DNA of 64,000 nucleotides, taken from positions 15,438,001 through 15,502,000 of the forward strand of contig CATNEN010000038.1 of assembly GCA_950097015.1 (NCBI GenBank). The letters are read 5' to 3'. Of this stretch, positions 3 to 27,215 are shown in pieces. Source of the stretch: Macrostomum hystrix (lineage: Eukaryota; Animalia; Platyhelminthes). The notes under the pieces are model-generated. The model was not told the origin of the DNA. It saw nothing but the letters and a program-made list of their open reading frames with translations, and ran no database searches. Made by a program: the position numbers and the translations under genes. Each line of letters opens with the position of its first letter. Position 1 is the first letter of the stretch.

Positions 3-614
3 CACTGGAATCAAAGCCGATGTTTCTCCAAACCTCCGTTGAAGTACAAAGTAGCGGAGACCAACCGTACAGGATTTTTGGACGTAAGAACTATGGAAAT
101 TGAGACAGAGCACCCCACCTTTCAGGACTGCTCGAACCGAACTGGATACCTGTTACCCAAAGAGGACAAAGTGTACAAGGTCGACTCAAATTTCACCAGC
201 TTCGAACTTATACAGGTAAAGAAATTGAAGAACGAAGATTGGGGAATAGAGGCTATGAAATTACCTAACATCAAACGGATTATCTTTACACCAGAAACAG
301 ATATTAAAATAGAAGAAATCCGAAGGCCAATTACATTGCACGATCTGTACACGCAGATGAAGGACCAGAGAGAATTTCTGAGAACGGTATTTAAACTACC
401 AAAGCAGAAGACTTCACAGACGCTCGACCTCCCACCATTGGAAGCAAACATAGCCCTCAAAACTTATGACTTCGCATCTTGGATGCCGTGGATAGGCATA
501 AAACTCAATATTTTCAACATAGCCGTTGGAGCTGCCGCTCTCTGTGTATACTTCTACATCATACTTAAAACCATAATAGTTTGTCACAGGCTCTATCGGA
601 AAAAGTACGAGTGA
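3..614 (+). CDS. C-terminal part of a retroelement envelope glycoprotein, herpes gB-like (class III fusion) with TM anchor; 5'-truncated by the window edge
   Basis: Frame is open from base 3 (HWNQSRCFSKPPLKY...GFLD...EI...QDC...Y), resembling the gB motif CYSRPLVSF..GQLG..NEL....EPC; sequons NQS, NRT, NRT, NFT; hydrophobic helix IFNIAVGAAALCVYFYIILKTIIVC followed by a basic stop-transfer segment RLYRKK. Confidence 0.7.
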   Translation, partial: HWNQSRCFSKPPLKYKVAETNRTGFLDVRTMEIETEHPTFQDCSNRTGYLLPKEDKVYKVDSNFTSFELIQVKKLKNEDWGIEAMKLPNIKRIIFTPETDIKIEEIRRPITLHDLYTQMKDQREFLRTVFKLPKQKTSQTLDLPPLEANIALKTYDFASWMPWIGIKLNIFNIAVGAAALCVYFYIILKTIIVCHRLYRKKYE

Positions 615-1973
615 CCAGGAATTCGGGCAATTCAAAGACGGATAAAGGCGACGCGAGAACAACACGAATTGTTAGTACAGCCAAGCACGGACACTAGCTA
701 CAGACACACGGGCCCACGCCGCCCAGCACCAGAGGCACCAACCACAAATAAGGAACAGCATCACCCGATGATTCCGTCTGCTCCACTGGCTTCATCAATC
801 TATCCGACGATCAGCTCATGGCCACCGCCGATAGTGGCAGCAATTACGAACGGCCAGAAATACACGGTGACACGACTGAAGATAGGCACGCGAGTCTGCA
901 GAGCGCTGATAGACAGCGGAGCTGAGAGGTCGCTGATAGACGAAGCGACGGCGCGCCGATACAGTGACAGCTTCGAGAAGCCGACGACAGAGCTACAAGG
1001 AGTACACGGAGGAAATCTCACGCAATCCGGAATGATCACGTTACCAGTCGAAGCAGGAAACGCAATCGTCAACGTTAAGTTTCATGTCATTCCTAACTTG
1101 AGCTCTGGGAGATACCATGCACTCCTGGGAATTGATTACTTAAGTCAGTTGCAGGAGGGTATGTCTATCAATTACCAACAGCAACAGATGCAGTTAAATG
1201 GCAGATCGTATGAAATCATGACAGTCGCCGCCCAAGAAGCCCCAAATAAGATCAGACTAGTTTCCGTGGTAAACCTGAATCCATGGGAAACAGCTCAAAT
1301 TACAGCTAGAACCGACTCAAAGGAGGAATTGCCTGACACGGTACTTTTCGAGCCAGACAGGGGTATCGTCGAGAATAAGGCGATAGGTCTGACTCAGGAG
1401 ATAGTTCATCCGGACGAGAAGGGAGAGATACACGTTCTCATATCTAACGAATCAGCCAGACCGATCACTCTGTACCCGGATACAGCCATAGGTTCGTATG
1501 AGGCAGATATAAAGACATATGAAATAGCTGTGAATCAGGAACAGGCACCGGCAATGACAGAGACAGAATTCAGAGATGCGATTAATCTGCAGGGAGCCGA
1601 GATAACAGCAGAGCAGAAAGAACAACTAAGAGAAATCCTCTGGGAGAACAAGGAAGCATTTCGTCTCTCAGATGATGAGATAGGCTTTACAGAAGTAGCG
1701 AAACACGAACTCCACATAAAACCGATTGTGGAGGTGAAGCTGATTTCAAATCAAGAGTCTTTCCAAGTGCACACCGACAGGCTGAAGCCAATGGCCACGT
1801 CAACACCACATGTGATGCTTCCTGACCTCAGACCGAGCGACCCACAGCGCCACCAGCGACAGCCAAGGCAGCGATTCACCAAGGAAGTGAGTGTGCAGGC
1901 AGAGGAGCTGGACGCACAGGCCGATACAGCTCGGAAGAAATACAATCTGAGGAGTAAAGTGAAACTTCTTTGA
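615..1973 (+). CDS. Truncated pol: PSAP-containing linker, retropepsin protease, pre-RT region fused to integrase C-terminus
   Basis: Same frame as env, open from 615; RALIDSGAERSLI and ALLGIDYL protease motifs; EQKEQLREILWENKEAF...IGFTEVAKHEL is the typical start of the gypsy RT region; ends with an integrase-type tail; no YxDD, RNase H or DDE motifs. Confidence 0.8.
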   Translation, partial: PGIRAIQRRIKATREQHELLVQPSTDTSYRHTGPRRPAPEAPTTNKEQHHPMIPSAPLASSIYPTISSWPPPIVAAITNGQKYTVTRLKIGTRVCRALIDSGAERSLIDEATARRYSDSFEKPTTELQGVHGGNLTQSGMITLPVEAGNAIVNVKFHVIPNLSSGRYHALLGIDYLSQLQEGMSINYQQQQMQLNGRSYEIMTVAAQEAPNKIRLVSVVNLNPWETAQITARTDSKEELPDTVLFEPDRGIVENKAIGLTQEIVHPDEKGEIHVLISNESARPITLYPDTAIGSYEADIKTYEIAVNQEQAPAMTETEFRDAINLQGAEITAEQKEQLREILWENKEAFRLSDDEIGFTEVAKHELHIKPIVEVKLISNQESFQVHTDRLKPMATSTPHVMLPDLRPSDPQRHQRQPRQRFTKEVSVQAEELDAQADTARKKYNLRSKVKLL

Positions 1974-2147
1974 CAACTGATGTCAAGGTAGCGAGGAAGC
2001 AGACGGACAATTTTACCTTTTAAACCAATATTTATTACTCTGTTGGTGTGCGCTCTGATATTTAGAATTATATATTTTATATTACTCTGCATCACTAGTC
2101 ACTATTTATTCACTCACAAATATTCAACCCACCCTTCGGATAATCAG

Positions 2148-2912
2148 ATGTATTCGACGGAGCTAGACACAGTGGATGATTGCACCATCGATGAGCCGCT
2201 TACGACCTACACATTGGTCAAGCCATTGTTTGCATCGGCAGAACCAAGCACAGCAGTCGGGAAGGAGATGAACTTTAGGAACAGCGCCGCCACTGAACAG
2301 CAACGGCGACATCTCCAAACCCAATGGGAGATCAGAAGATCTAGACACGGACGATCGCCGTGCCCAACAGTAATGAGAGAGAGCTACAGACGGGAAGAAA
2401 AAGATCTGTCCTTCATGATGCTACACAACCTTATGGACAGACAGTCCATCCAGAGCAAGCCTAATCGGCATGGTGAGATGAAACTATTTGACATTCACCT
2501 GGACATGCTGGATGCGCCACGAATCCCAGCCAATGTAGTGACGCACCTAACAACAGCGCGCATCCTGGCCGACGAAAATAACCCACTCTGGCTCCGCTCG
2601 GACTATAACATCCTCCGTAACCGAACAACAATTTTCTTTCACTACGGGGAACAAGACGCTTTTACCTGTGTCATAGTCAAGGTTCTCTGCCATAATCTAG
2701 CTGTCAATCTGATCCATCCGTGGGGCCCACGACCCAATGCGATATGCACCACGTTATCCAAGCATCTGTGTAAAGCGTTGGATTATCATGGAATTCGTAT
2801 CAGCAACCAGGAAGCGGAGAAGCGAGTAATCCACACTTACTCACCGGCGCTGCTCCAGTGGCCGCAACTAAAAATGGCACTGGAAGCCTCGCAAGCCACC
2901 GCTTCTCAGTAA
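2148..2912 (+). CDS. Retroelement accessory ORF A (254 aa, unknown function)
   Basis: Long ORF with coding-like composition between pol and the PPT; ATG directly after taatcag; a further open stretch in another frame (~2962-3201) may be a frameshifted continuation. Confidence 0.5.
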   Translation: MYSTELDTVDDCTIDEPLTTYTLVKPLFASAEPSTAVGKEMNFRNSAATEQQRRHLQTQWEIRRSRHGRSPCPTVMRESYRREEKDLSFMMLHNLMDRQSIQSKPNRHGEMKLFDIHLDMLDAPRIPANVVTHLTTARILADENNPLWLRSDYNILRNRTTIFFHYGEQDAFTCVIVKVLCHNLAVNLIHPWGPRPNAICTTLSKHLCKALDYHGIRISNQEAEKRVIHTYSPALLQWPQLKMALEASQATASQ

Positions 2913-3677
2913 GAGCTTAGGGACCGGAAGCGTTAGGGGCATAAGGAGACACGAGAGCTGAGACACTGACGCAACGATAGGACAGAAAAGACGATTCGAT
3001 TGGACGTCCTATCCACGTGGCACTCTCACTCAATGTGCAATCCTTAAGGCAGTACCCAGTTCTCTAAAAGAAATTCGGGAGGTGATTCACATCTCGAATA
3101 ATCGGACCAGTGAACTAGGGGAAGCCAGGCCCGTCACTCAAATTGAATTTAAGTTTAGAATAGCAAAGAATACAAAGACAAGGCTTCACCGAATTCCATG
3201 ATGAGGCACACCTTATTTATTATATGCAAAACCATTATTAATTCCGACACGTTTATTCACTCCGACACGTACTAGCACTAGCAAATCACAACTTACAAAA
3301 AAAAAACACGACTGATACGAAAGAGACACAACATGATCAAAACACACAAGGGACACAACACAATAGCAATACACCACAAGGTTGCACCCAACGCGATAAA
3401 ATAATCTAAAACATATCATCACCCTGAGATTCCCTGAACTATTATTAATCAACTGGGATCTCAAGGAACGTATATTCGCTATCAATACATCGCATTTTGG
3501 TTCCGGTTTTTGGAAAATCTCATAACTTATCTCTGTTTAACTTCATTTCAATTGAACTTAAAACATCAATTACAATAGATAGGTAGTAGCAACAAGTATG
3601 CCACAGAGAACGTAGGATTAAAAGACAAAAATATAACATTCAAACCGGAATCCGAAACATTATCCAAATTTCTAGCA

Positions 3678-4001
3678 ATGAACACAGTCAACATCCCACT
3701 CATCGGGACCATGCGAACTCAACAGTCCGTCATCCACCAGACGGAGATGAACAATCGCAGGTGGGTCCGGCTGGTGGGAATATTAACGGAGCTGGAGAGG
3801 TTCGTGGAGGAAAGTTGGCCCGACGACACACCATCGGCCACAAGGCGTCGGGGCTATTGGATGAAATGCGTCATCCGTAGCGCCGCTCGCCAAGCCAAGG
3901 CTTGGGCGTCGGGGCGACTGGCCTGGTGGCGCAACCGACTCCAATATCAAGTTGAAGCCTGGCGCAGCATACAGGACGCTTTAATAATGAAAAAAAACTA
4001 A
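3678..4001 (+). CDS. Retroelement accessory ORF B (107 aa, Trp/Arg-rich, probably helical)
   Basis: GC-richer ORF bounded by AT-rich spacers; ATG preceded by tttctag|ca. Confidence 0.45.
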   Translation: MNTVNIPLIGTMRTQQSVIHQTEMNNRRWVRLVGILTELERFVEESWPDDTPSATRRRGYWMKCVIRSAARQAKAWASGRLAWWRNRLQYQVEAWRSIQDALIMKKN

Positions 4002-4207
4002 CTGGCCATATTTATTAATTACTCTAATATATCATATCCAGTAGGGATTAAATAAAGGGATCAATCTCAGATTTCACCGTTTTATATATTCACAGACTCA
4101 CTAACAGTAGACAGTTCAGCAATTCGAGGAAGACCTGGAGAATAACCTAAGGAATAAAAGAAAAACGCCTAGGAAAGCCACCTATATTGGACAACCTTTC
4201 CAGCGCG

Positions 4208-4549
4208 ATGGCCAACCGAGACTACGACCGCCGCCCCGGCCAGAAGTTTGTTGACGTGGACATCCGGGGGCGGCCGGTCCTGAAGGCCGACGCGAGCACT
4301 CAGGTGGCCGAGGAGGAGATTGATGGCGGCCTGACGGTCGCCACGTCGACAACCGACCTGAGAGAATGCTACCTAGAGGATTTTTACCCCACAAGACAAG
4401 TGCAAGGCACGTGGCCACCAGAGACCACGTATCGGCCCGAGCCCACCACCAGGCAGTGGCCCACCATTGATTGTTTCCGGCGTCATTTCCGGGACAAATA
4501 CCAAGTGCCACTACTGGATGGTTACTACACGCACTTCTATAATTTATAA
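4208..4549 (+). CDS. Retroelement accessory ORF C (113 aa)
   Basis: GC-rich ORF bounded by AT-rich spacers; ATG preceded by ctttccag|cgcg. Confidence 0.45.
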   Translation: MANRDYDRRPGQKFVDVDIRGRPVLKADASTQVAEEEIDGGLTVATSTTDLRECYLEDFYPTRQVQGTWPPETTYRPEPTTRQWPTIDCFRRHFRDKYQVPLLDGYYTHFYNL

Positions 4550-4720
4550 GTAAAACTATATTTATCTACGGTGCAGGTCAAATACATTTATTGATTTCGT
4601 TTTCATCAAGTATCAGATTTCAAACGTCTTATATGTTCACAGATCTACTAGTAGTAAGCCGATTAGCAGCTCGATTAAGACGATAGGCTACATCTCCCTT
4701 GACCAGTCAAGGATTTCTTC

Positions 4721-4730
4721 AAAAGGGGGA
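4721..4730 (+). other. Polypurine tract (plus-strand primer)
   Basis: aaaaggggga immediately 5' of the LTR start TG. Confidence 0.8.
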
Positions 4731-5662
4731 TGATATAAGACTTAGAAATCTGAATGGAATTTAAGTGGGCGTTAGTAGGAAGCAAAAGCCAAAAATAGCA
4801 ACAGCAGAAAGTACGAGCAACCGAAAGGAGAATGATTAGACAAAATCCGCCCCCAGAGATCAACTATTCATTTCAGCGCAGGCCCGGTTCGGCATGACAG
4901 CAGCTGTGCCGACGTGGAGCTGGCTGAGACCGGATCCGCAGAGGCGCTGACGTGGAGCTGCCGGAGACCGGATCCGCAGCTGTGCTGACGTGGAATGGCC
5001 CGAGACCGGAACGCAGCTGTGCTGACGTGGAGCTCCCGGAATCAACCCGGCCTACCCCGACCTGCAGCTGCCTGCATCGACCCAACCCAGCAGAAACTGG
5101 AGCCGCCCGGACCCGATCGGGAACGAGATCGAGAGGAGGCCGAGTCCGCACAAGAAGGCGGGATCGATGAAAGAAAAGGGGTTGGCGTGCCTGCCAACCA
5201 ACTAGTTTAATGACAATAACTGTACTAGACTCGAGGCTGCGACCTCACTCACCCCAAATTCCCATGCGTACTGTCGCTATGGTATTATCTCCCCCTCGGA
5301 TCGAGGGGTTTTAAAGACACTATATATATCGGTGCGGAGCGCGGAAAAAGATCCGCCGCGCGAGTTAGTTAGAGACTCGCTTTGAGCTCCGTTTAGATAA
5401 ACTTACTAGAAAATCATTGTGTTTGCGTTCTTTCTTAAGTAGAATCCATGACAACGGTCTAGAGAGATCACTACGACCAGCCGAAATACTGAGCATCGAT
5501 AGTCGTTAGGAGTTATAGCCTTCAAGACTTTTAGACTGCAATAAACCGCTAGACAAACTATAGGAAAATACAAGTGAAGAAGAAGAAACATTAAAACTTG
5601 AAGCGCTATAGACTTATTGAAATCATTGAAGACTGAAGATCGGACAGGTCAGTCACTTAACA
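4731..5662 (+). repeat. 3' LTR (~930 bp)
   Basis: Starts TGATATAAG after the PPT; TATA-like tatatatat 5321-5329; AATAAA 5540-5545; ends ...cacttaaCA, after which a SINE fragment follows; U3 has about four tandem units containing TGACGT/CGACGT (4900-5035). The 3' boundary is less certain than the 5' boundary. Confidence 0.7.
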
Positions 5663-5821
5663 GCCGCACTTTTTGCACTGCTTTTTCAAAGGCTGTATAA
5701 AACTGTTCAGTCCGTGGACTGGGGGCCGCCACGCCCACTCAGATAGGCCTAGCAACATAGCAACTAAAGCAACGTAGTTTATTGTCTATCTAAAGTATAC
5801 TTTCTAAAGTTTCTTTCTAAA

Positions 5822-5972
5822 GAGAGGATTGTAGCCTAGTGTTTAGAGCGTCGGACTCATGACTTGAAGGTCGTGGGTTCGATTCCGGCTCCACTGTAAC
5901 AATTCATGTCCTTTAGCAAGACACTTAACTATGCATTGCTTCAGTTCACTCTGCTGTTAGATGGGTACCAGC
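5822..5972 (+). mobile_element. tRNA-derived SINE family A (5' part)
   Basis: A box (tagcctagtgt) and B box (ggttcgattcc) head followed by gcaagacacttaac...cagttcac..gctgt..atgggtacc; same family at 25.4 kb, 26.4 kb and 6.5 kb. Confidence 0.8.
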
Positions 5973-6043
5973 ATCAGCTTTTGTGATCAGCAAAGTAATA
6001 ATGCCTAGTAAAAGCACAAATAGCTCGTAATATCGCAGCCCAC

Positions 6044-7064
6044 CTGTGCTCCTCGTGCGTGTGTTTGCATCGACACTTGGCGCGCCACGTGGCCGGATCG
6101 AAATCGCGCCGACGCTTCAACCAGAACTCGCCAGCCTCCTCCGGCCTGGTGGGCACCCATTCGAATCCTGAGCACTTGCAGTGCTGACAGGGCAGCTGCA
6201 GAGCACGGCCGCCTGGCTGTTTGTGCTCGGCCAGACTGTGACCGCAGAAGCAGCGAGAGCCAGAGTGTACTCGCTGACAGTCCTGCTTGTCGTAGGGCGG
6301 CTCGCGCGGTCTCCAGGCAAAGTACCAGCCGGTCGCCTGCGGCACAGATGCGGTTCAATGACGATTCGTTGACAACATAAAAAACTTTAAATTTTTCCCA
6401 AATCTTTTATAAGATTTACACTCCAATTTTAACAACAAACTGACGACCGTCAAAGAAGATGTTGTCCGGGCACGAGTAGTTGAATTTAATAAATAAATAA
6501 TCATATTAATAATTGAAGTAAATGTATAATTAAGTGTCTGTCTAAAGGAAGCAAATTTTTTCAGTGGAGTCAAGAATCGAACCCCGACCATCAAGTCGTA
6601 AGTCCGGCGCTCTAACCACAAGGCTAAAACCCTTGCCTTTAAATTACTCTATCATTAAAAAATTAAACTGACGCCAAATTCCCGAATTTATGACCAAGTA
6701 GGTGCAATAGTTTGAATCCAAGATCCTAAACCTAAATCACCTTGGCCTCTTCGACAGCCCGCATCTCCGGCTCGAACAGCTGCTTCACCCGCGGTGCCAG
6801 ATCCGCTCCGTTCATCGCCTTGGCAACCGCCAGCACATTGTACTGCTCGGCGCGTTGAATTTTGTTAATTCTCAGCTCCCCGCCAGGCAGTTGATAGCGA
6901 CCTGGCAGCAGGTTGCCCTGGGCGTCCGTTGGCAGGCCGCGACCACGGCCCGCAGCTGCTGGCGGCTGGCTTCCGGTGCCTCGCCTAGCAACCGTTTTTG
7001 TTGTTGTCTTTGACGACGACGATGTCGGCGTCTTGCCAGGCTGATTCTGTCTGTTGTTACTCAT
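6044..7064 (-). CDS. FAM221B: FAM221B-like protein, exons 1-2 (7064-6741, 6336-6044); the remaining exons must lie beyond the window start
   Basis: RCFCGHSLAEH...PC..CKC..FEWVPTRPEEAGEFWLKRRRDFDPATWRAKCRCKHTHEEH matches the FAM221B family; phase-compatible GT-AG junctions. Confidence 0.8.
6500..6630 (-). mobile_element. SINE family A fragment (degenerate) in FAM221B intron 1
   Basis: Reverse complement of the tRNA-like head (tggttagagcg...ggttcgattc...ccactgaaa). Confidence 0.6.
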
Positions 7065-15079: not shown

Positions 15080-18000
15080 ATGCCGGTGGCCACAGACAGG
15101 CTTGGCGCACTGCAGGTTTGCAAGCTGATTCAGTGTGTGCGCGAGAGGAACAAGTCTCAGATTGACAAGCTAGTGCAGTGCGGAATACCTTATTTGGTTA
15201 ACTATGGCGAGCCCTACGAAGGGGAGACAGCGCTAATCATTGCGGCGAAAGAGAATGACGTTGACATGATTCGGGTGAGCTGAAATTTTGGTAGAAGAAG
15301 TATAATTTGTGGGAAGATTTTTAACAGTTCTTTTAGAGGTCAACCCCATGCAACTGCCACAAACCGCAGTTCCTTACCAAATCGATGGGCGCTCTGCCGG
15401 ACTTCGCCGATTTGACCGGCGTCACCCCGGCGATGCGCGCAGCCGAGCTGGGCCTTGATGGCGCGCTGGCAGCGCTGGCTGAAGCCGGAGCCAGCATGCG
15501 TGCCAGCGACAGAGACGGAAAAAGTAAGCACGCGAGAAACTATCTTTTATTTCATTCTGTCTACTGTATAAGTAGCGTAGTTCGAAAAGTGTTTGATAAA
15601 AAAAAGTGAAAATGTCGCGTACTTAAATTACAATTTTCAGAGCCAACATTCTAGAGTAGTCCGGTACTTTTCTATTGAATAATTGTCACTCTGTACAATA
15701 TTATCACGCTAGTTATATGCACTTGATTTCCTATAATTTTTCTATATCACGCGGTGTATCAGAATGCTGCGTACGGCTGTTCAGTCCATGGACTGGAGTG
15801 GAGGCGTGCTTGTTCACAAATGGTTCGCGTGGAGTCTGGTCGCTCTAATTCTAACAAATAGCTAAAACTCCTAACATATTTGTATACAATACTTCTTGGC
15901 ACAACAATGTTTAACGATTGAACTACTGACACAGTTAAATGAATAGCATATTCACTGAAATTTCTGAAATTTATCTGCGATACATCACTTGAAAATGATA
16001 AAATTGACGATAATTAAGTTCCTATGTTTATATATAGCTCGGATTATTCACTTATTTCACGATTATATAATTAATAAAAATCTATCTTTAAAAACAATCC
16101 AGTGACCTTGTGTCCCTCGATTGGACCCTCGATTTCAACCTATACCAACTATATTGAAACAGAGCGATAAATTTAATTACATATTCAGTAGATAAGATAA
16201 GCTGGACTGTCCCACTAATTTTGAGCTTAATTTTTCTGTATTCAAGTTTGCGGCACTTAACTTAAAGCGGCTAATTTTTACTGTAGCTACTATTTAATTG
16301 GGTTTCTTTTGTGAATAGCGCGACATTCTTGTTTGCCAAAGGAAGTCTCTATTTTTGTCTATGGTCTGGTCTCATACCGTGACTCCAAAAAGGTGCCAAT
16401 TTTATGATATAGCGGGCCTGAAACGAGACCAATCATACGAAACCTTTTCTATGGCTTTCTTAGAGAAAATTTTAGCTCTACATGTAGTTACGCCTAAAGT
16501 GTTTCCAGAGGTTAAATTTAATAATATCCGCCAAATTCCGGTTCCATGGTCGAAAGTCTTTCTTTTTGCGAGAACCGTTATTCAGCGGGTTAATGGCAAT
16601 TAACTGCCCGCAAGAAAATTACCGATCATTAATTCATCTATGGCCATTAATGGGCAAGACTTTTTGCCCGCCTGGCAAAAAGGTCATGGTACAATACACT
16701 TTAGCAAAGACTTTATACACTAAGACTATAGCTTTTTGCGTTCAATTTTGGACAGCGGGCTTTCAATTTCGGCAAGGGTCTATGTGTCAGTCTCCCATCC
16801 CCTCCCATTGGTGTCTATGGCCAGAAAATGCACAGACGGGCTTTCAAATTCGACAGCGGGCAATCAATTTCGGCATGCAACCGGATTGACTGGAACTTCT
16901 TTCTTACTGGAAATCCTCAGCTCGTGGCAGCTGTCTATGGTAGAAGCAGCTTCTGCTTCTACCATTTGTTGGCTTGACTGCTCGCTAATTTGACAGAGAT
17001 CACAGAGGGAGAAAGTTTAGCAACACTGAGTCTTCTCTGTTAAAATCTAACAGTTTAACATGGAGCATCGGCAGTATGCAACGATATCCAGAGACAAAAG
17101 AGATCTTGTCATCCAGGCTTGGCAGCGCGGAGAACCGCTGGAATACTTCGAGTGCGAGGAAAGGCAGTTCTCAGATTGGTGCACACTCAGAAGAGCCCTG
17201 GACTCATCCTCATTCTGGCAACTTCTCCTACTATCGGCTTGGTGGAGTATAGCCTTGAGATCGGTTCTGTGAACCGTGAGCGCGTGCAGATTTTGGTCCC
17301 TCGAATCTGCCAGAGCGTTGCTGCTCATCTGCCAGAGGCCATCAGTGTGTGATTCTGCTGGATGGGGCTCGGTTTCACCAGGGGCTGGAATTTGAAGGTC
17401 GCATCAGCTTCCGCACCTTGCCGCCATACTCACCATTCCTGAACCCAGTGGAGCTGGCACACAGTGCGTTCAAGGCTGCAGTGAAGCGCCAACTGAGTCA
17501 GCCAGTTGTTCTGCAGGAATTTGCTCTTATTCCGGAGGACATGAGCGCTAGGGACTGGAGGATAATGGTGTTGCAGCGCTGTGGTGTTGAGGCAATCGAT
17601 GCCATCACCCAGCAGAAGTGCGGTGCTTGGTTTCAGCACACCTGCGATTCATCCCTCCATACTTGGCTAGAGAAAACATTTTGGTATAAATGTTGACTAT
17701 CTTCGTCTTTGTGGTCCGACTTGTTTCACACGTTCGCGACTCTATCGTAGTGTCCCAGTTGGCATTGAATTCATTCAACAAAATGTTCGCGTTTAGTTCA
17801 AATGTTTGCTCAAGTGGACTAATGCCGAAATTGATTGCCCGCTGTCGAATTTGAAAGCCCGTCTGTGCATTTTCTGGCCATAGACACCAATGGGAGGGGA
17901 AGGGAGACTGACACATAGACCCTTGCCGAAATTGAAAGCCCGCTGTCCAAAATTGAACGCAAAAAGCTATAATACACTTTACTTAAACGATATATTTGAA

Positions 18001-25417: not shown

Positions 25418-25730
25418 AAGAGGCTGTGGCCTAGTGGTTAGGGCGTCGGATTCCAGACTTGAAGGTCGCGGGTTCGATTCCCGACTCCACTGAAACAATT
25501 TGTATTCTTTAGCAAGACAAATAACTCTGCATTGCTTCAGTTCACCCAGCTGTTAAATGGGTACCTGCATCAGCTGGCATAATTGAAGGTGGGTGTGGCA
25601 TCCCCCCAGTCCATGGACTGAAAAGCTGTACGCAGTCTTCAGATGCGCCGCGCAACAGCTGCGACTGTGCTGTCGGCTGCACATATGGCCCGATTGGGGC
25701 AGGTGTAATAAATTATTAATTATTAACTAT
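25418..25730 (+). mobile_element. SINE family A, full length
   Basis: tRNA head (tggcctagtgg / ggttcgattcc), central cagttcacccagctgttaaatgggtacc, palindrome cagtccatggactg, AT-rich tail. Confidence 0.85.
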
Positions 25731-25899: not shown

Positions 25900-27215
25900 T
25901 TACTGCACCAATTTCTGATGAAGAGCGTTAAGACCGCGAAAATATTTGACAGTTTTCACTTTCAACTCGGCTGTGGCATCCTCGTCAACAATAAAGAAAG
26001 CCCTGGGGTGATTCTGAAATGCCGACACTGTCCACATGTGATTAACGCCGCACTCTATGGCTTTGTGCAGGGCAAGGGCCTTAGATAGGCCGGTGACGAG
26101 AATCATGACGTTATCAGCGTCCATCACCGTGCCAACGCCCACAGTCAGGGCCTGGGTTGGCACCAACGATTTGTCGTTGTCAAAGAACCGAGAATTTGCA
26201 TCGATGGTGTCCTGTTGAAATAGATTGAAGAATCATTTTCTAATTTTAGTGCTGTTAGTTCGGGAAGGTGGCTAGTCTCACAGATACACGGGGCAGAAAG
26301 GCCAAGTTTTGTTCAATAAACCTGTGTTGTTTATTGATATTTGATCAACAACACACTCATTCACTGAGGAGCTTTAGTCAGGATCAATTGTTACGATTTC
26401 AATTGTGAGCCTAGGAGGTTGCAATAAGATTAGCCTAGAAACTAAAGCGTCAGACTCACGAATTGAAGGTCGGGTGTTCGATTCCTGAATCCAATTTAAC
26501 TATCGGTATCAGTTTACTTAACTTTTAAATGGGTACCAGCTAAGGTAATTGAGGGTGGGTGTGGCGTCCCTTCCCCCAGTCCATGGACTAAACAGCCGTA
26601 CGCAGACTTCAGATATGCCGCGCAATAGCTGCGGCTGTGCTGTCGGCTGCACATCTGACCCAGTGAGGCTAGATATAATCAATTATACTACATAGAATAC
26701 AGAACCGAATTCTTATAACTAACCTGCGCCAGTGTCTTGACGCGAGTGCGCGAAGCCAACGAGCTCCCCGGCTCATTGAAAGCAATGTGGCCGTCTGGCC
26801 CGATGCCGCCAATGAACAGTCGAATACCGCCGGCCTCTTTAATGCTGCGCTCGAACGCCTCGCATTCGGCATCTAAATCTGGCGCGTTGCCGTCCAACAG
26901 GTGGGCGTTGACCGGGTCGATGTCAATTTGAGAGAAGAAATTGTGAAACATGTAATAGTGATAAGATTCTTGATGACTACGCGGCAGGTTGACATACTCG
27001 TCCATGTTGAAGGTCTTCACATATTTGAAGCTCAGTTCTCCATTCTGATAGAACTGAATCAGCCGTTTGTACATGCCCAGAGGCGTACTGCCAGTCGGCA
27101 GGCCCAGAGTGAAGTATTTGTCCGGGCCCGGGGCAAAGTCTAGGATGCTCTTTTTAACAAATCCGGCGGCCCATTCGGCCACGTCTTTGCTGGTGTCGCA
27201 AATTACTAGGCGCAT
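25900..27215 (-). CDS. GNPDA: Glucosamine-6-phosphate deaminase; exons 27215-26724 and 26211-25900 (267 aa)
   Basis: [54 protein letters not shown] motifs; phase-0 GT-AG intron. Confidence 0.96.
26430..26668 (+). mobile_element. SINE family A copy in the GNPDA intron
   Basis: Homologous to 25418-25730. Confidence 0.75.

What the first reader, a model, noticed from the sequence alone, without database searches (positions are those of the whole stretch)
1974..4720. Operon-like cassette of three orphan ORFs inside the retroelement, each with its own 3' splice acceptor
Seen: between pol and the PPT lie ORFs of 254, 107 and 113 aa, plus degenerate open stretches near 2960-3200 and 3400-3520, separated by AT-rich spacers. 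Each ATG is 0-4 nt after a YAG acceptor: taatcag|ATG 2148, tttctag|caATG 3678, ctttccag|cgcgATG 4208. A spacer motif recurs: tttattcac 2105 and 3252, tttatatattcacag 4081, ttatatgttcacag 4629. AATAAA occurs at 4051. Most host genes in this window have the same acceptor-before-ATG design. Inference: the element expresses several accessory genes, like a complex retrovirus, either by alternative cis-splicing from a 5' donor or by using the host SL trans-splicing machinery to resolve a polycistron.
Basis: partly seen in the sequence, partly recalled or inferred. Interest (0 to 1): 0.78.

Follow-up and report, generated by a model that had tools for sequence, protein, structure and literature searches.

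The report
Spliced-leader gene cassette in flatworm retrotransposon
A virus-like jumping gene in a flatworm genome carries three extra genes of unknown kind near its end; in a related copy the third gene is found joined to the host's spliced-leader sequence, so the element likely borrows the host's operon-cutting machinery to make separate messages, although this is not yet shown for the other two genes.

Summary
Real and partly confirmed. The window begins inside an env-before-pol Ty3/gypsy element of a Macrostomum-like flatworm; a named relative encodes gag-env-pol as one ORF. This copy is broken: an in-frame stop after env, and about 853 pol codons missing. Three orphan ORFs (254, 107, 113 aa) lie between pol and the 3' LTR, and diverged family copies mostly keep their frames. 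One contig of an RNA-like public run has the last 22 nt of the published Macrostomum spliced leader (SL) joined exactly at ORF C's acceptor, in an 83%-identical copy. A sister run holds the unspliced form. No SL join was seen at ORF A or B (half of the loose-end rows were visible); near ORF A an abundant unlaid input enters at 2111, not 2148. Best reading (0.6): a host-SL-resolved accessory cassette. Rivals are internal promoters, cis-splicing from the LTR leader, or stray SL use. SL on a retrotransposon RNA is known (Cer1); I found no paper on a 3' SL-fed cassette. This scan noted similar acceptor arrays in giant planarian-type elements on other DNA, without RNA confirmation in those notes.

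The parts
3..614 (+). 3' end of env (end of ectodomain and transmembrane segment near residues 170-188), closed in this copy by an in-frame stop at 612-614
   Evidence: 54% identical to residues 885-1086 of P0151, whose residues 729-931 match Pfam Monjiviricetes_fusion at 29 bits against a cut-off of 27; hydropathy; contigs of 4 of 4 runs read a sense codon at this stop
615..1973 (+). pol remnant: aspartic protease and linker up to the start of RT, joined in frame to the integrase C-terminus; about 853 codons missing between 1742 and 1752
   Evidence: Pfam RVP; tblastn of P0151 885-1466 to window 6-1742 and 2320-2391 to 1752-1970
2111..2111 (+). inferred merge point where an abundant sequence that did not lay on the window joins the ORF A leader in runs X14 and X16 (splice junction or diverged spacer; undetermined)
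   Evidence: contig ends and depths 69.3 to 164.5 and 58.7 to 196.2; bin arithmetic
2145..2147 (+). CAG acceptor-like site before ORF A; does not fit YTNCAG; use not seen
2148..2912 (+). ORF A, 254 aa, orphan; residues 132-222 weakly resemble an EVH1 (PH-like) domain (unproven)
   Evidence: no hits; phmmer to Mena EVH1 E 0.25-0.6; best-covered ORF in the RNA-like runs, frame kept at about 16% divergence
3673..3675 (+). TAG acceptor-like site before ORF B; use not seen
3678..4001 (+). ORF B, 107 aa (copies in three runs end six codons earlier), basic, predicted three-helix protein with an N-terminal helical hairpin
   Evidence: AlphaFold2 pLDDT 76.8, pTM 0.50; fold search inconclusive
4051..4056 (+). 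AATAAA after ORF B, candidate poly(A) signal
   Evidence: use not tested
4060..4134 (+). first copy of a ~75-nt spacer block (contains the 4081 motif)
4198..4203 (+). TTCCAG acceptor of ORF C, the only YTNCAG among the spacer AGs; SL joined here in a related copy
   Evidence: (X16 spliced, X14 unspliced, a third copy with TTACAG); motif from PMC8629364
4208..4549 (+). ORF C, 113 aa, orphan
   Evidence: no hits; diverged copies align from or near the ATG without gaps
4605..4681 (+). second copy of the spacer block, upstream of the PPT; most diverged family contigs rejoin the window at 4623-4626
   Evidence: 5 of 9 joints land at 4623-4626
4721..4730 (+). polypurine tract
   Evidence: sequence
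4731..5741 (+). 3' LTR (TGA...TCA), TATA-like at 5321, AATAAA at 5540
   Evidence: depth in X1 rises about tenfold over it; end estimated at 5741

Best explanation
This is the 3' part of a broken gag-env-pol Ty3/gypsy (errantivirus-like) element of a flatworm whose three extra genes likely form a small operon-like cassette: in a related copy the host spliced leader is joined at ORF C's acceptor, and ORFs A and B are likely released from the long LTR transcript in the same way. Shown: the element type, three frames mostly kept across diverged copies, ORF C's acceptor conserved in three copies, and one SL join at that acceptor. Inferred: transcription starts in the 5' LTR; most RNA stays unspliced for the polyprotein and packaging; a fraction is trans-spliced at internal acceptors that have no paired donor, giving capped one-gene messages; cleavage at AATAAA 4051 may free the downstream piece for SL addition, as in operons. 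Also inferred: modules were added or swapped next to the PPT, leaving the 75-nt duplication. Protein functions are not established; the leads are an EVH1-like binding domain in A and a basic helical hairpin in B.
For:: X16 record 15 (603 nt, depth 24.9) has 31 loose letters before 4208. The 30 shown are the last 22 nt of the published SL (PMC5173321; PMC8629364) plus 8 nt. X14 record 8 has the same 8 nt preceded by genomic ...CTTTCCAG, so the join is at the acceptor. A third copy (X16, 4222) has ...CTTTACAG, 8 nt, then ATG. All three fit YTNCAG, the top SL-acceptor motif in M. lignano, and 4203 is the only such site in the four spacers. The AG-to-ATG distance differs between copies (4, 8, 8 nt), which fits a non-coding leader rather than a coding upstream exon. 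Frame conservation: of 23 listed contig pieces wholly inside the ORFs (6,144 nt, 593 differences) 2 have gaps, against 3 of 3 pieces wholly inside spacers. ORF A: 11 of 26 changed codons are silent against 23-28% expected, with no stops. Spacers of 174, 765 and 206 nt are under the 1-kb operon threshold used for M. lignano. About 30% of genes in that host are SL-spliced and 15% lie in operons.
Against: The SL evidence is one contig in one of four runs, from an 83%-identical copy; 24 of 48 loose-end rows were visible. Contigs near-identical to the window run unbroken across 4204 (X14 record 6, X16 record 14, X17 record 23, X5 record 26). Contigs also cross 3676 (X16 record 13, X18 record 29, X5 record 25) and 2148 (X17 record 17) unbroken. 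In X14 and X16 the abundant ORF A input merges at 2111, not 2148, and its source is unseen. The acceptors of A and B do not fit YTNCAG (44% of host SL sites do). ORF C has 1 silent among 4 listed changes, and ORF B has too few to test. Minor copies carry frameshifts in ORF A. The runs are not on record as RNA. Contigs cannot show that one precursor spans several ORFs, or where transcription starts.
Confidence: 0.6

Rival explanations
1. Each accessory gene, or the cassette as a whole, is transcribed from an internal promoter after pol, as env is in Oikopleura Tor3b/4b. SL addition then only trims a monocistronic 5' end, and there is no polycistron to resolve.
For: Internal env promoters are documented (PMC4402516, passages). 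Most SL-spliced genes in the host are not in operons. AT-rich spacers could hold promoters, and ORF A is covered much more deeply than B (contig depth is a poor expression measure).
Against: Contigs bridge pol-spacer-ORF A and ORF B-ORF C without break, compatible with read-through. Spacer 3 is only 206 nt, and a third of it is a copy of the pre-PPT block.
Confidence: 0.17
2. ORFs A and B (and perhaps C in part) are made by cis-splicing from a donor in the 5' LTR or gag leader, as for errantivirus env, with SL taking only the acceptor left unpaired.
For: The abundant input merging at 2111 could be an LTR-leader exon. A cis donor outcompetes SL for a shared acceptor (PMC4558846, passages). Earlier AI notes favoured a common leader for giant planarian-type elements (unchecked).
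Against: The one junction actually read is SL. No joint from an upstream donor appears among 9 joints or 15 of 31 joints shown; the stretch laid held no LTR and the 5' LTR is outside the window, so this test is weak. A donor-like site at 2909 would fuse A to C in frame only in this copy, not in copies with 8 nt spacing.
Confidence: 0.13
3. The SL join is stray use of a cryptic acceptor on element RNA, or a genomic copy derived from an SL-bearing RNA. ORFs B and C are passengers with no regulated expression.
For: SL pieces attached to LTR and LINE loci are reported in flatworm genomes (PMC12582326; PMC5832876; passages). It rests on a single contig. ORF B coverage is low.
Against: The acceptor is kept in three diverged copies whose flanks otherwise diverge. 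The join is at the gene start, and in X16 the SL form is the only laid form of that copy at its 5' end. Frames of B and C show no gaps at 13-17% divergence in the listed pieces. Three such ORFs arose in 1 of 2000 shuffles.
Confidence: 0.1

Closest known systems
GAG-ENV-POL Ty3/gypsy errantiviruses of Platyhelminthes, including Mlig_errantivirus_2 (PMC13524379; passages; supplement rows)
   Same: env between gag and pol, viral fusion-type env, LTRs; nearest protein relatives are M. lignano gag-env-pol polyproteins (P0151, P0002)
   Different: That paper's main text has 0 hits for 'splic' and 0 for 'accessory'. The listed M. lignano element is 10.6 kb LTR to LTR; whether it is P0151's family or has a 3' cassette was not determined. 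Here 2.76 kb with three ORFs separate pol from the 3' LTR.
C. elegans Cer1 (PMC3315495; passages)
   Same: A gypsy-type element whose subgenomic RNA receives the host SL while the long RNA skips the site
   Different: Cer1's SL site is at the 5' end, on a cis-spliced 2.4-kb RNA built partly from gag. Here the SL lands downstream of pol, in front of a separate orphan ORF that is the last of three.
Burro/GYPSM1 giant elements of planarians (PMC6431247; passages)
   Same: env in frame between gag and pol in one polyprotein; accessory ORFs present; flatworm host
   Different: Burro exceeds 30 kb with a 4,873-aa polyprotein bearing BIR, ankyrin and other domains; P0151 is 2,393 aa without them. The review has no 'trans-splic' passage.
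Host operons of Macrostomum lignano (PMC8629364, parts 1-2 of 4 read; PMC5730564, passages)
   Same: Same SL, same YTNCAG acceptor at ORF C, same-strand genes less than 1 kb apart
   Different: Host operons are cellular genes. Here the array sits inside a retroelement RNA that must also stay unspliced, and SL is shown for one of three genes only.
Oikopleura Tor elements (PMC4402516; passages)
   Same: Retroelement in an SL-using host with a gene downstream of pol needing its own message
   Different: Tor env is cis-spliced from the LTR (Tor3a) or made from an internal promoter (Tor3b/4b); the paper has 0 hits for 'spliced leader'.

Membership tests
GAG-ENV-POL Ty3/gypsy errantivirus | LTR with upstream polypurine tract | tested here: met
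   PPT 4721-4730, LTR 4731-5741; only the 3' LTR is in the window
GAG-ENV-POL Ty3/gypsy errantivirus | pol order protease-RT-RNase H-integrase | tested here: met
   Met in the relative P0151; the window copy keeps the protease and the integrase C-terminus and lacks the middle
GAG-ENV-POL Ty3/gypsy errantivirus | env located between gag and pol | tested here: met
   Window 3-611 is 54% identical to P0151 885-1086, which lies between the zinc knuckle (197-212) and the protease (1175+) and overlaps the fusion-protein match
GAG-ENV-POL Ty3/gypsy errantivirus | env of HSV/gB (class III) type | tested here: inconclusive
   Pfam Monjiviricetes_fusion 29 bits against cut-off 27 in P0151; not folded, cysteine pattern not checked
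GAG-ENV-POL Ty3/gypsy errantivirus | 5' LTR, primer-binding site and several intact genomic copies | not testable with these tools
   No genome held; contigs show many related copies but no whole element
SL-resolved operon (M. lignano criteria) | downstream gene carries the SL at its 5' end | tested here: met
   ORF C in a related copy, one contig. Not seen for ORF B or ORF A; 24 of 48 loose-end rows visible
SL-resolved operon (M. lignano criteria) | adjacent same-strand genes less than 1 kb apart | tested here: met
   Spacers of 174, 765 and 206 nt
SL-resolved operon (M. lignano criteria) | YTNCAG-type acceptor before each trans-spliced gene | tested here: inconclusive
   Fits for C in three copies; does not fit for A or B; the motif covers 9,551 of 21,754 host sites
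SL-resolved operon (M. lignano criteria) | one precursor RNA spans the genes | not testable with these tools
   Only contigs were available; they bridge spacers but cannot show a single transcript
SL-resolved operon (M. lignano criteria) | poly(A) site after each upstream gene | tested here: inconclusive
   AATAAA after B; only AATACA after A and C; a 13-A loose end at 3306 follows a genomic A-run
Burro/GYPSM1 | giant polyprotein (about 4,900-5,100 aa) with BIR, ankyrin, MATH and similar domains | tested here: not met
   Nearest whole relative P0151 is 2,393 aa with none of these Pfam matches
EVH1/WH1 domain (ORF A) | significant profile match and PH-like fold | tested here: inconclusive
   phmmer E 0.25-0.6 to Mena EVH1 with one gap over about 70 residues and the Trp of the DDANKKW motif kept; no Pfam match; model pLDDT 31 and fold searches uninformative
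ESCRT-III-like protein (ORF B) | helical hairpin core clearly above generic hairpins | tested here: inconclusive
   Best Z 9.1 (rmsd 2.9, 74 aligned) to Asgard ESCRT-IIIB; 9 of 50 rows are ESCRT-III or Vipp1 entries, but all Z are below the ~13 needed for helical bundles

The most novel reading that the evidence does not exclude
Flatworm gag-env-pol retroelements run a true retroviral operon: a swappable array of accessory genes between pol and the 3' LTR, each cut out of the genomic RNA by the host's spliced-leader machinery instead of by cis-splicing, with new modules added by duplication next to the PPT. In this family the cargo would include mimics of host cell machinery (an EVH1-like domain and an ESCRT-III-like hairpin).
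Probability: 0.35. Interest if true: 0.82.

Novelty: new variant of a known kind. Interest (0 to 1): 0.65.

Why it matters
Retroviruses and errantiviruses reach genes downstream of pol by cis-splicing or internal promoters. Using the host SL is a third route: it needs only an acceptor, gives a capped message, and would let an element gain or swap 3' genes cheaply. It would explain the acceptor-before-every-ATG arrays that this scan noted in giant planarian-type elements, and it offers a testable case of a selfish element exploiting trans-splicing in a host group with transgenesis and many RNA data sets. It also warns that some 'host operon' orphan genes in flatworm annotations may be retroelement accessory genes.

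Tried and rejected
No genome was held, so copies could not be aligned whole and no proper dN/dS was possible. Homologue searches found nothing for ORF A (101 candidates, none at E 0.001), ORF C (6 candidates) or the env fragment among longer proteins; ORF B was not searched in that library. Pfam gave no match for A, B or C. PHROGs gave nothing below E 0.17. PDB sequence searches gave nothing significant. Metagenome scans with ORF A and the pol end found no locus. The ESM Atlas was unavailable. The ORF A model was unusable (pLDDT 31), and ORF C was not folded. One search included a high-copy repeat at 5826-5979 that filled the loose-end table (24 of 544 rows shown, all there), so it could not test SL joins or whether the SL join exists in DNA. 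No spacer segment folds better than shuffles, and Rfam had no match near a gathering score. The 2105/3252 motif pair and the two 'degenerate ORFs' were rejected as unsupported. Programmed read-through of the stop at 612-614 was considered and rejected because other copies have no stop there. A conserved A-C fusion by cis-splicing from 2909 was rejected because the frame is not kept between copies and no such joint was listed. Low or absent cover over 3300-3650 is not used as evidence. PMC6880638 (passages) had nothing relevant. No complex prediction was sent, as no binding is claimed.
Full report
Setting. No genome is held for the window. The first 5.7 kb are the 3' part of an LTR retroelement. 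An ORF open at the window start (3-614) ends in a hydrophobic segment and is followed in frame by a protease ORF (615-1973; Pfam RVP; frames). A search of 1.84 billion representatives with the pol remnant gave 189 hits. The best two belong to clusters named as Macrostomum lignano proteins. One member, P0151 (2,393 aa), has a zinc knuckle, a viral fusion glycoprotein match, protease, RT, RNase H and integrase in one ORF. It aligns to window 6-1742 (56%) and 1752-1970 (71%), so this copy lacks about 853 codons of pol. The in-frame stop at 612-614 is not present in contigs of 4 of 4 runs laid. This is therefore a defective copy of a gag-env-pol Ty3/gypsy element, an arrangement described for Platyhelminthes (PMC13524379, passages; a supplement row lists an M. 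lignano element) and for Burro (PMC6431247, passages). The PPT is at 4721-4730 and the LTR at 4731-5741. The host is inferred to be a Macrostomum-like flatworm.

Observation. The three ORFs, their YAG-ATG spacing (0, 2, 4 nt) and the listed motifs are as described. They exceed chance: 1 of 2000 shuffles for the ORF set, and about 0.1-0.7% for three YAGs. The motif at 4081/4629 belongs to a 75-nt duplication, 4060-4134 and 4605-4681 (0 of 500 shuffles). The 2105/3252 pair is not significant (120 of 500). The 'degenerate ORFs' and the claim about host genes are not supported.

Family evidence. Twenty of 24 listed runs, from 8 studies, hold part of the cassette; I laid 8 of them. (X1, X5, X3, X2) covers the whole element with copies up to 98-99% identical. 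(X14, X16, X17, X18; stretch 2050-4700) behaves like RNA, although none is on record as RNA: uneven cover, an SL join, a 13-A end, and a 19-nt end that I recall as a template-switch adapter (recalled, from no call). Of the listed pieces (32 of 117 rows, 32 of 6,516), 23 lie wholly in ORFs and 2 of these have gaps, while 3 lie wholly in spacers and all 3 have gaps. Pieces spanning both were left out, and the same copy recurs in several runs, so these are not independent counts. From the 40 of 404 differences shown, 26 ORF A codons change: 11 silent, 15 replacement, no stop, against 23-28% silent expected (p 0.02-0.09). ORF C has 1 silent of 4 sites over both calls. Other copies end ORF B six codons earlier. 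Minor copies have frameshifts in ORF A (X14 record 1, X16 record 10, a 4-nt loss in X18). Five of 9 joints run from 3170-3303 or 4359 to 4623-4626 with unknown sequence between; 1,865-nt contigs match only about 170 nt after ORF A and then the pre-PPT block. Related elements thus keep ORF A's flank and the 3' block but have a middle that is diverged or different.

The key result. In one search, X16 record 15 (603 nt, depth 24.9; 26 differences over 4208-4359) has 31 loose letters before the ORF C ATG. Of the 30 shown, 22 are the 3' end of the Macrostomum SL (found by full-text search; PMC5173321 passage; PMC8629364), followed by 8 nt. X14 record 8 shows the same 8 nt preceded by genomic sequence ending CTTTCCAG, matching window 4196-4203. 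A third copy has CTTTACAG, 8 nt, then ATG. The SL's terminal AUG is out of frame with ORF C at both 4 and 8 nt, so ORF C would start at its own ATG.

Results against. This is one contig among 24 of 48 loose-end rows shown. Contigs near-identical to the window cross 4204 unspliced in X14, X16, X17 and X5, and others cross 3676 and 2148 unspliced. For ORF A, contig ends and depths imply a contig 2111-2185 fed by the upstream spacer (depth 59-69) and by a second input (about 95-138) that did not lay. Predicted bin depths 120.4, 224.1 and 147.3 match the observed 118.5, 223.9 and 146.8 in X16. So there is no break at 2148 in those runs; the junction, if it is one, lies about 37 nt upstream and its partner is unseen. 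Contigs drop rare forms, so none of this shows absence.

Proteins. No homologue or family was found for A, B or C. ORF A residues 132-222 align with one gap over about 70 residues to the Mena EVH1 domain (E 0.25-0.6), and the low-confidence model has strands followed by a helix there. Two of the three ligand-binding aromatics, as I recall them, are not kept; this is a lead only. ORF B folds as three helices (pLDDT 76.8), with ESCRT-III entries frequent among the top matches but with Z at most 9.1, in the range of generic hairpins. None of the three has a strong hydrophobic segment like env's.

Mechanism. Most likely (0.6) the LTR transcript is partly trans-spliced at unpaired internal acceptors to release one-gene messages, while unspliced RNA serves the polyprotein and packaging. 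Shown: the SL join at ORF C in a related copy. Inferred: the same for A and B, origin from one precursor, coupling to poly(A) at 4051, and growth of the cassette by duplication beside the PPT. Rivals: internal promoters (0.17; PMC4402516, passages), cis-splicing from the LTR leader (0.13; PMC4558846, passages), and stray SL use or an SL-bearing genomic copy (0.10; PMC12582326, and PMC5832876, passages).

Novelty. SL addition to a retrotransposon RNA is known for Cer1, at a 5' site (PMC3315495, passages), and gag-env-pol elements with accessory ORFs are known in flatworms. Eight paper searches (listings only, apart from the papers cited) showed no report of an SL-fed accessory cassette downstream of pol. 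The library lacks most subscription papers, and bioRxiv supplements were not available. Earlier AI notes of this scan describe acceptor arrays in giant planarian-type elements of other genomes, without RNA confirmation (unchecked); look-ups by sequence and by place gave nothing. Verdict: a real feature, a new variant of a known kind, interest 0.65.

Noticed in passing
window 3786 and 4941-4969: In runs X14 and X16 (depth about 26) a contig 99% identical to 3786-4700 begins with 33 letters like the U3 repeat of the LTR, at a short shared motif and with no AG before 3786. It suggests a rearranged or internally deleted copy that keeps ORF C but not the start of ORF B. Unexplained.
   Followed up: partly
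window 1742-1752: The pol deletion of about 853 codons is in frame, fusing the start of RT to the integrase C-terminus; whether other copies share it was not determined.
   Followed up: partly
window 807-833 (pol-frame residues 65-73, before the protease): A 'YP..(S/E/H)WP' motif at the env-tail/protease junction recurs in the window, P0151, P0035 and P0002; possibly a cleavage or binding site.
   Followed up: no
window 3101-3210: A non-coding segment after ORF A is kept by copies in which 2987-3100 is replaced, and has high cover in three of four RNA-like runs; no significant fold.
   Followed up: partly
window 4900-5040: Tandem ~37-nt repeats in U3 vary in number between copies (joints 4974-5012 and 4920-5012).
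   Followed up: no
window 5826-5979; copies at 6511-6633 (-), 25425-25575, 26431-26503: Very high-copy short repeat next to the LTR, SINE-like by its look; ARAGORN finds no tRNA in the window.
   Followed up: partly
window 5974-64000: Host genes seen: FAM221, ALK/LTK glycine-rich, ankyrin repeat protein, glucosamine-6-phosphate isomerase, NAC-domain protein, UPRTase, syntaxin-5 and an adaptor medium chain, plus a DDE_3 transposase remnant at 17280-17696; several lie close together on +, separated by long tandem repeats.
   Followed up: no
proteins P0143, P0010, P0020: Unnamed proteins from other assemblies also have a fusion-glycoprotein match upstream of a protease-like region in one ORF, so env-pol in one frame is not limited to this family.
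   Followed up: no
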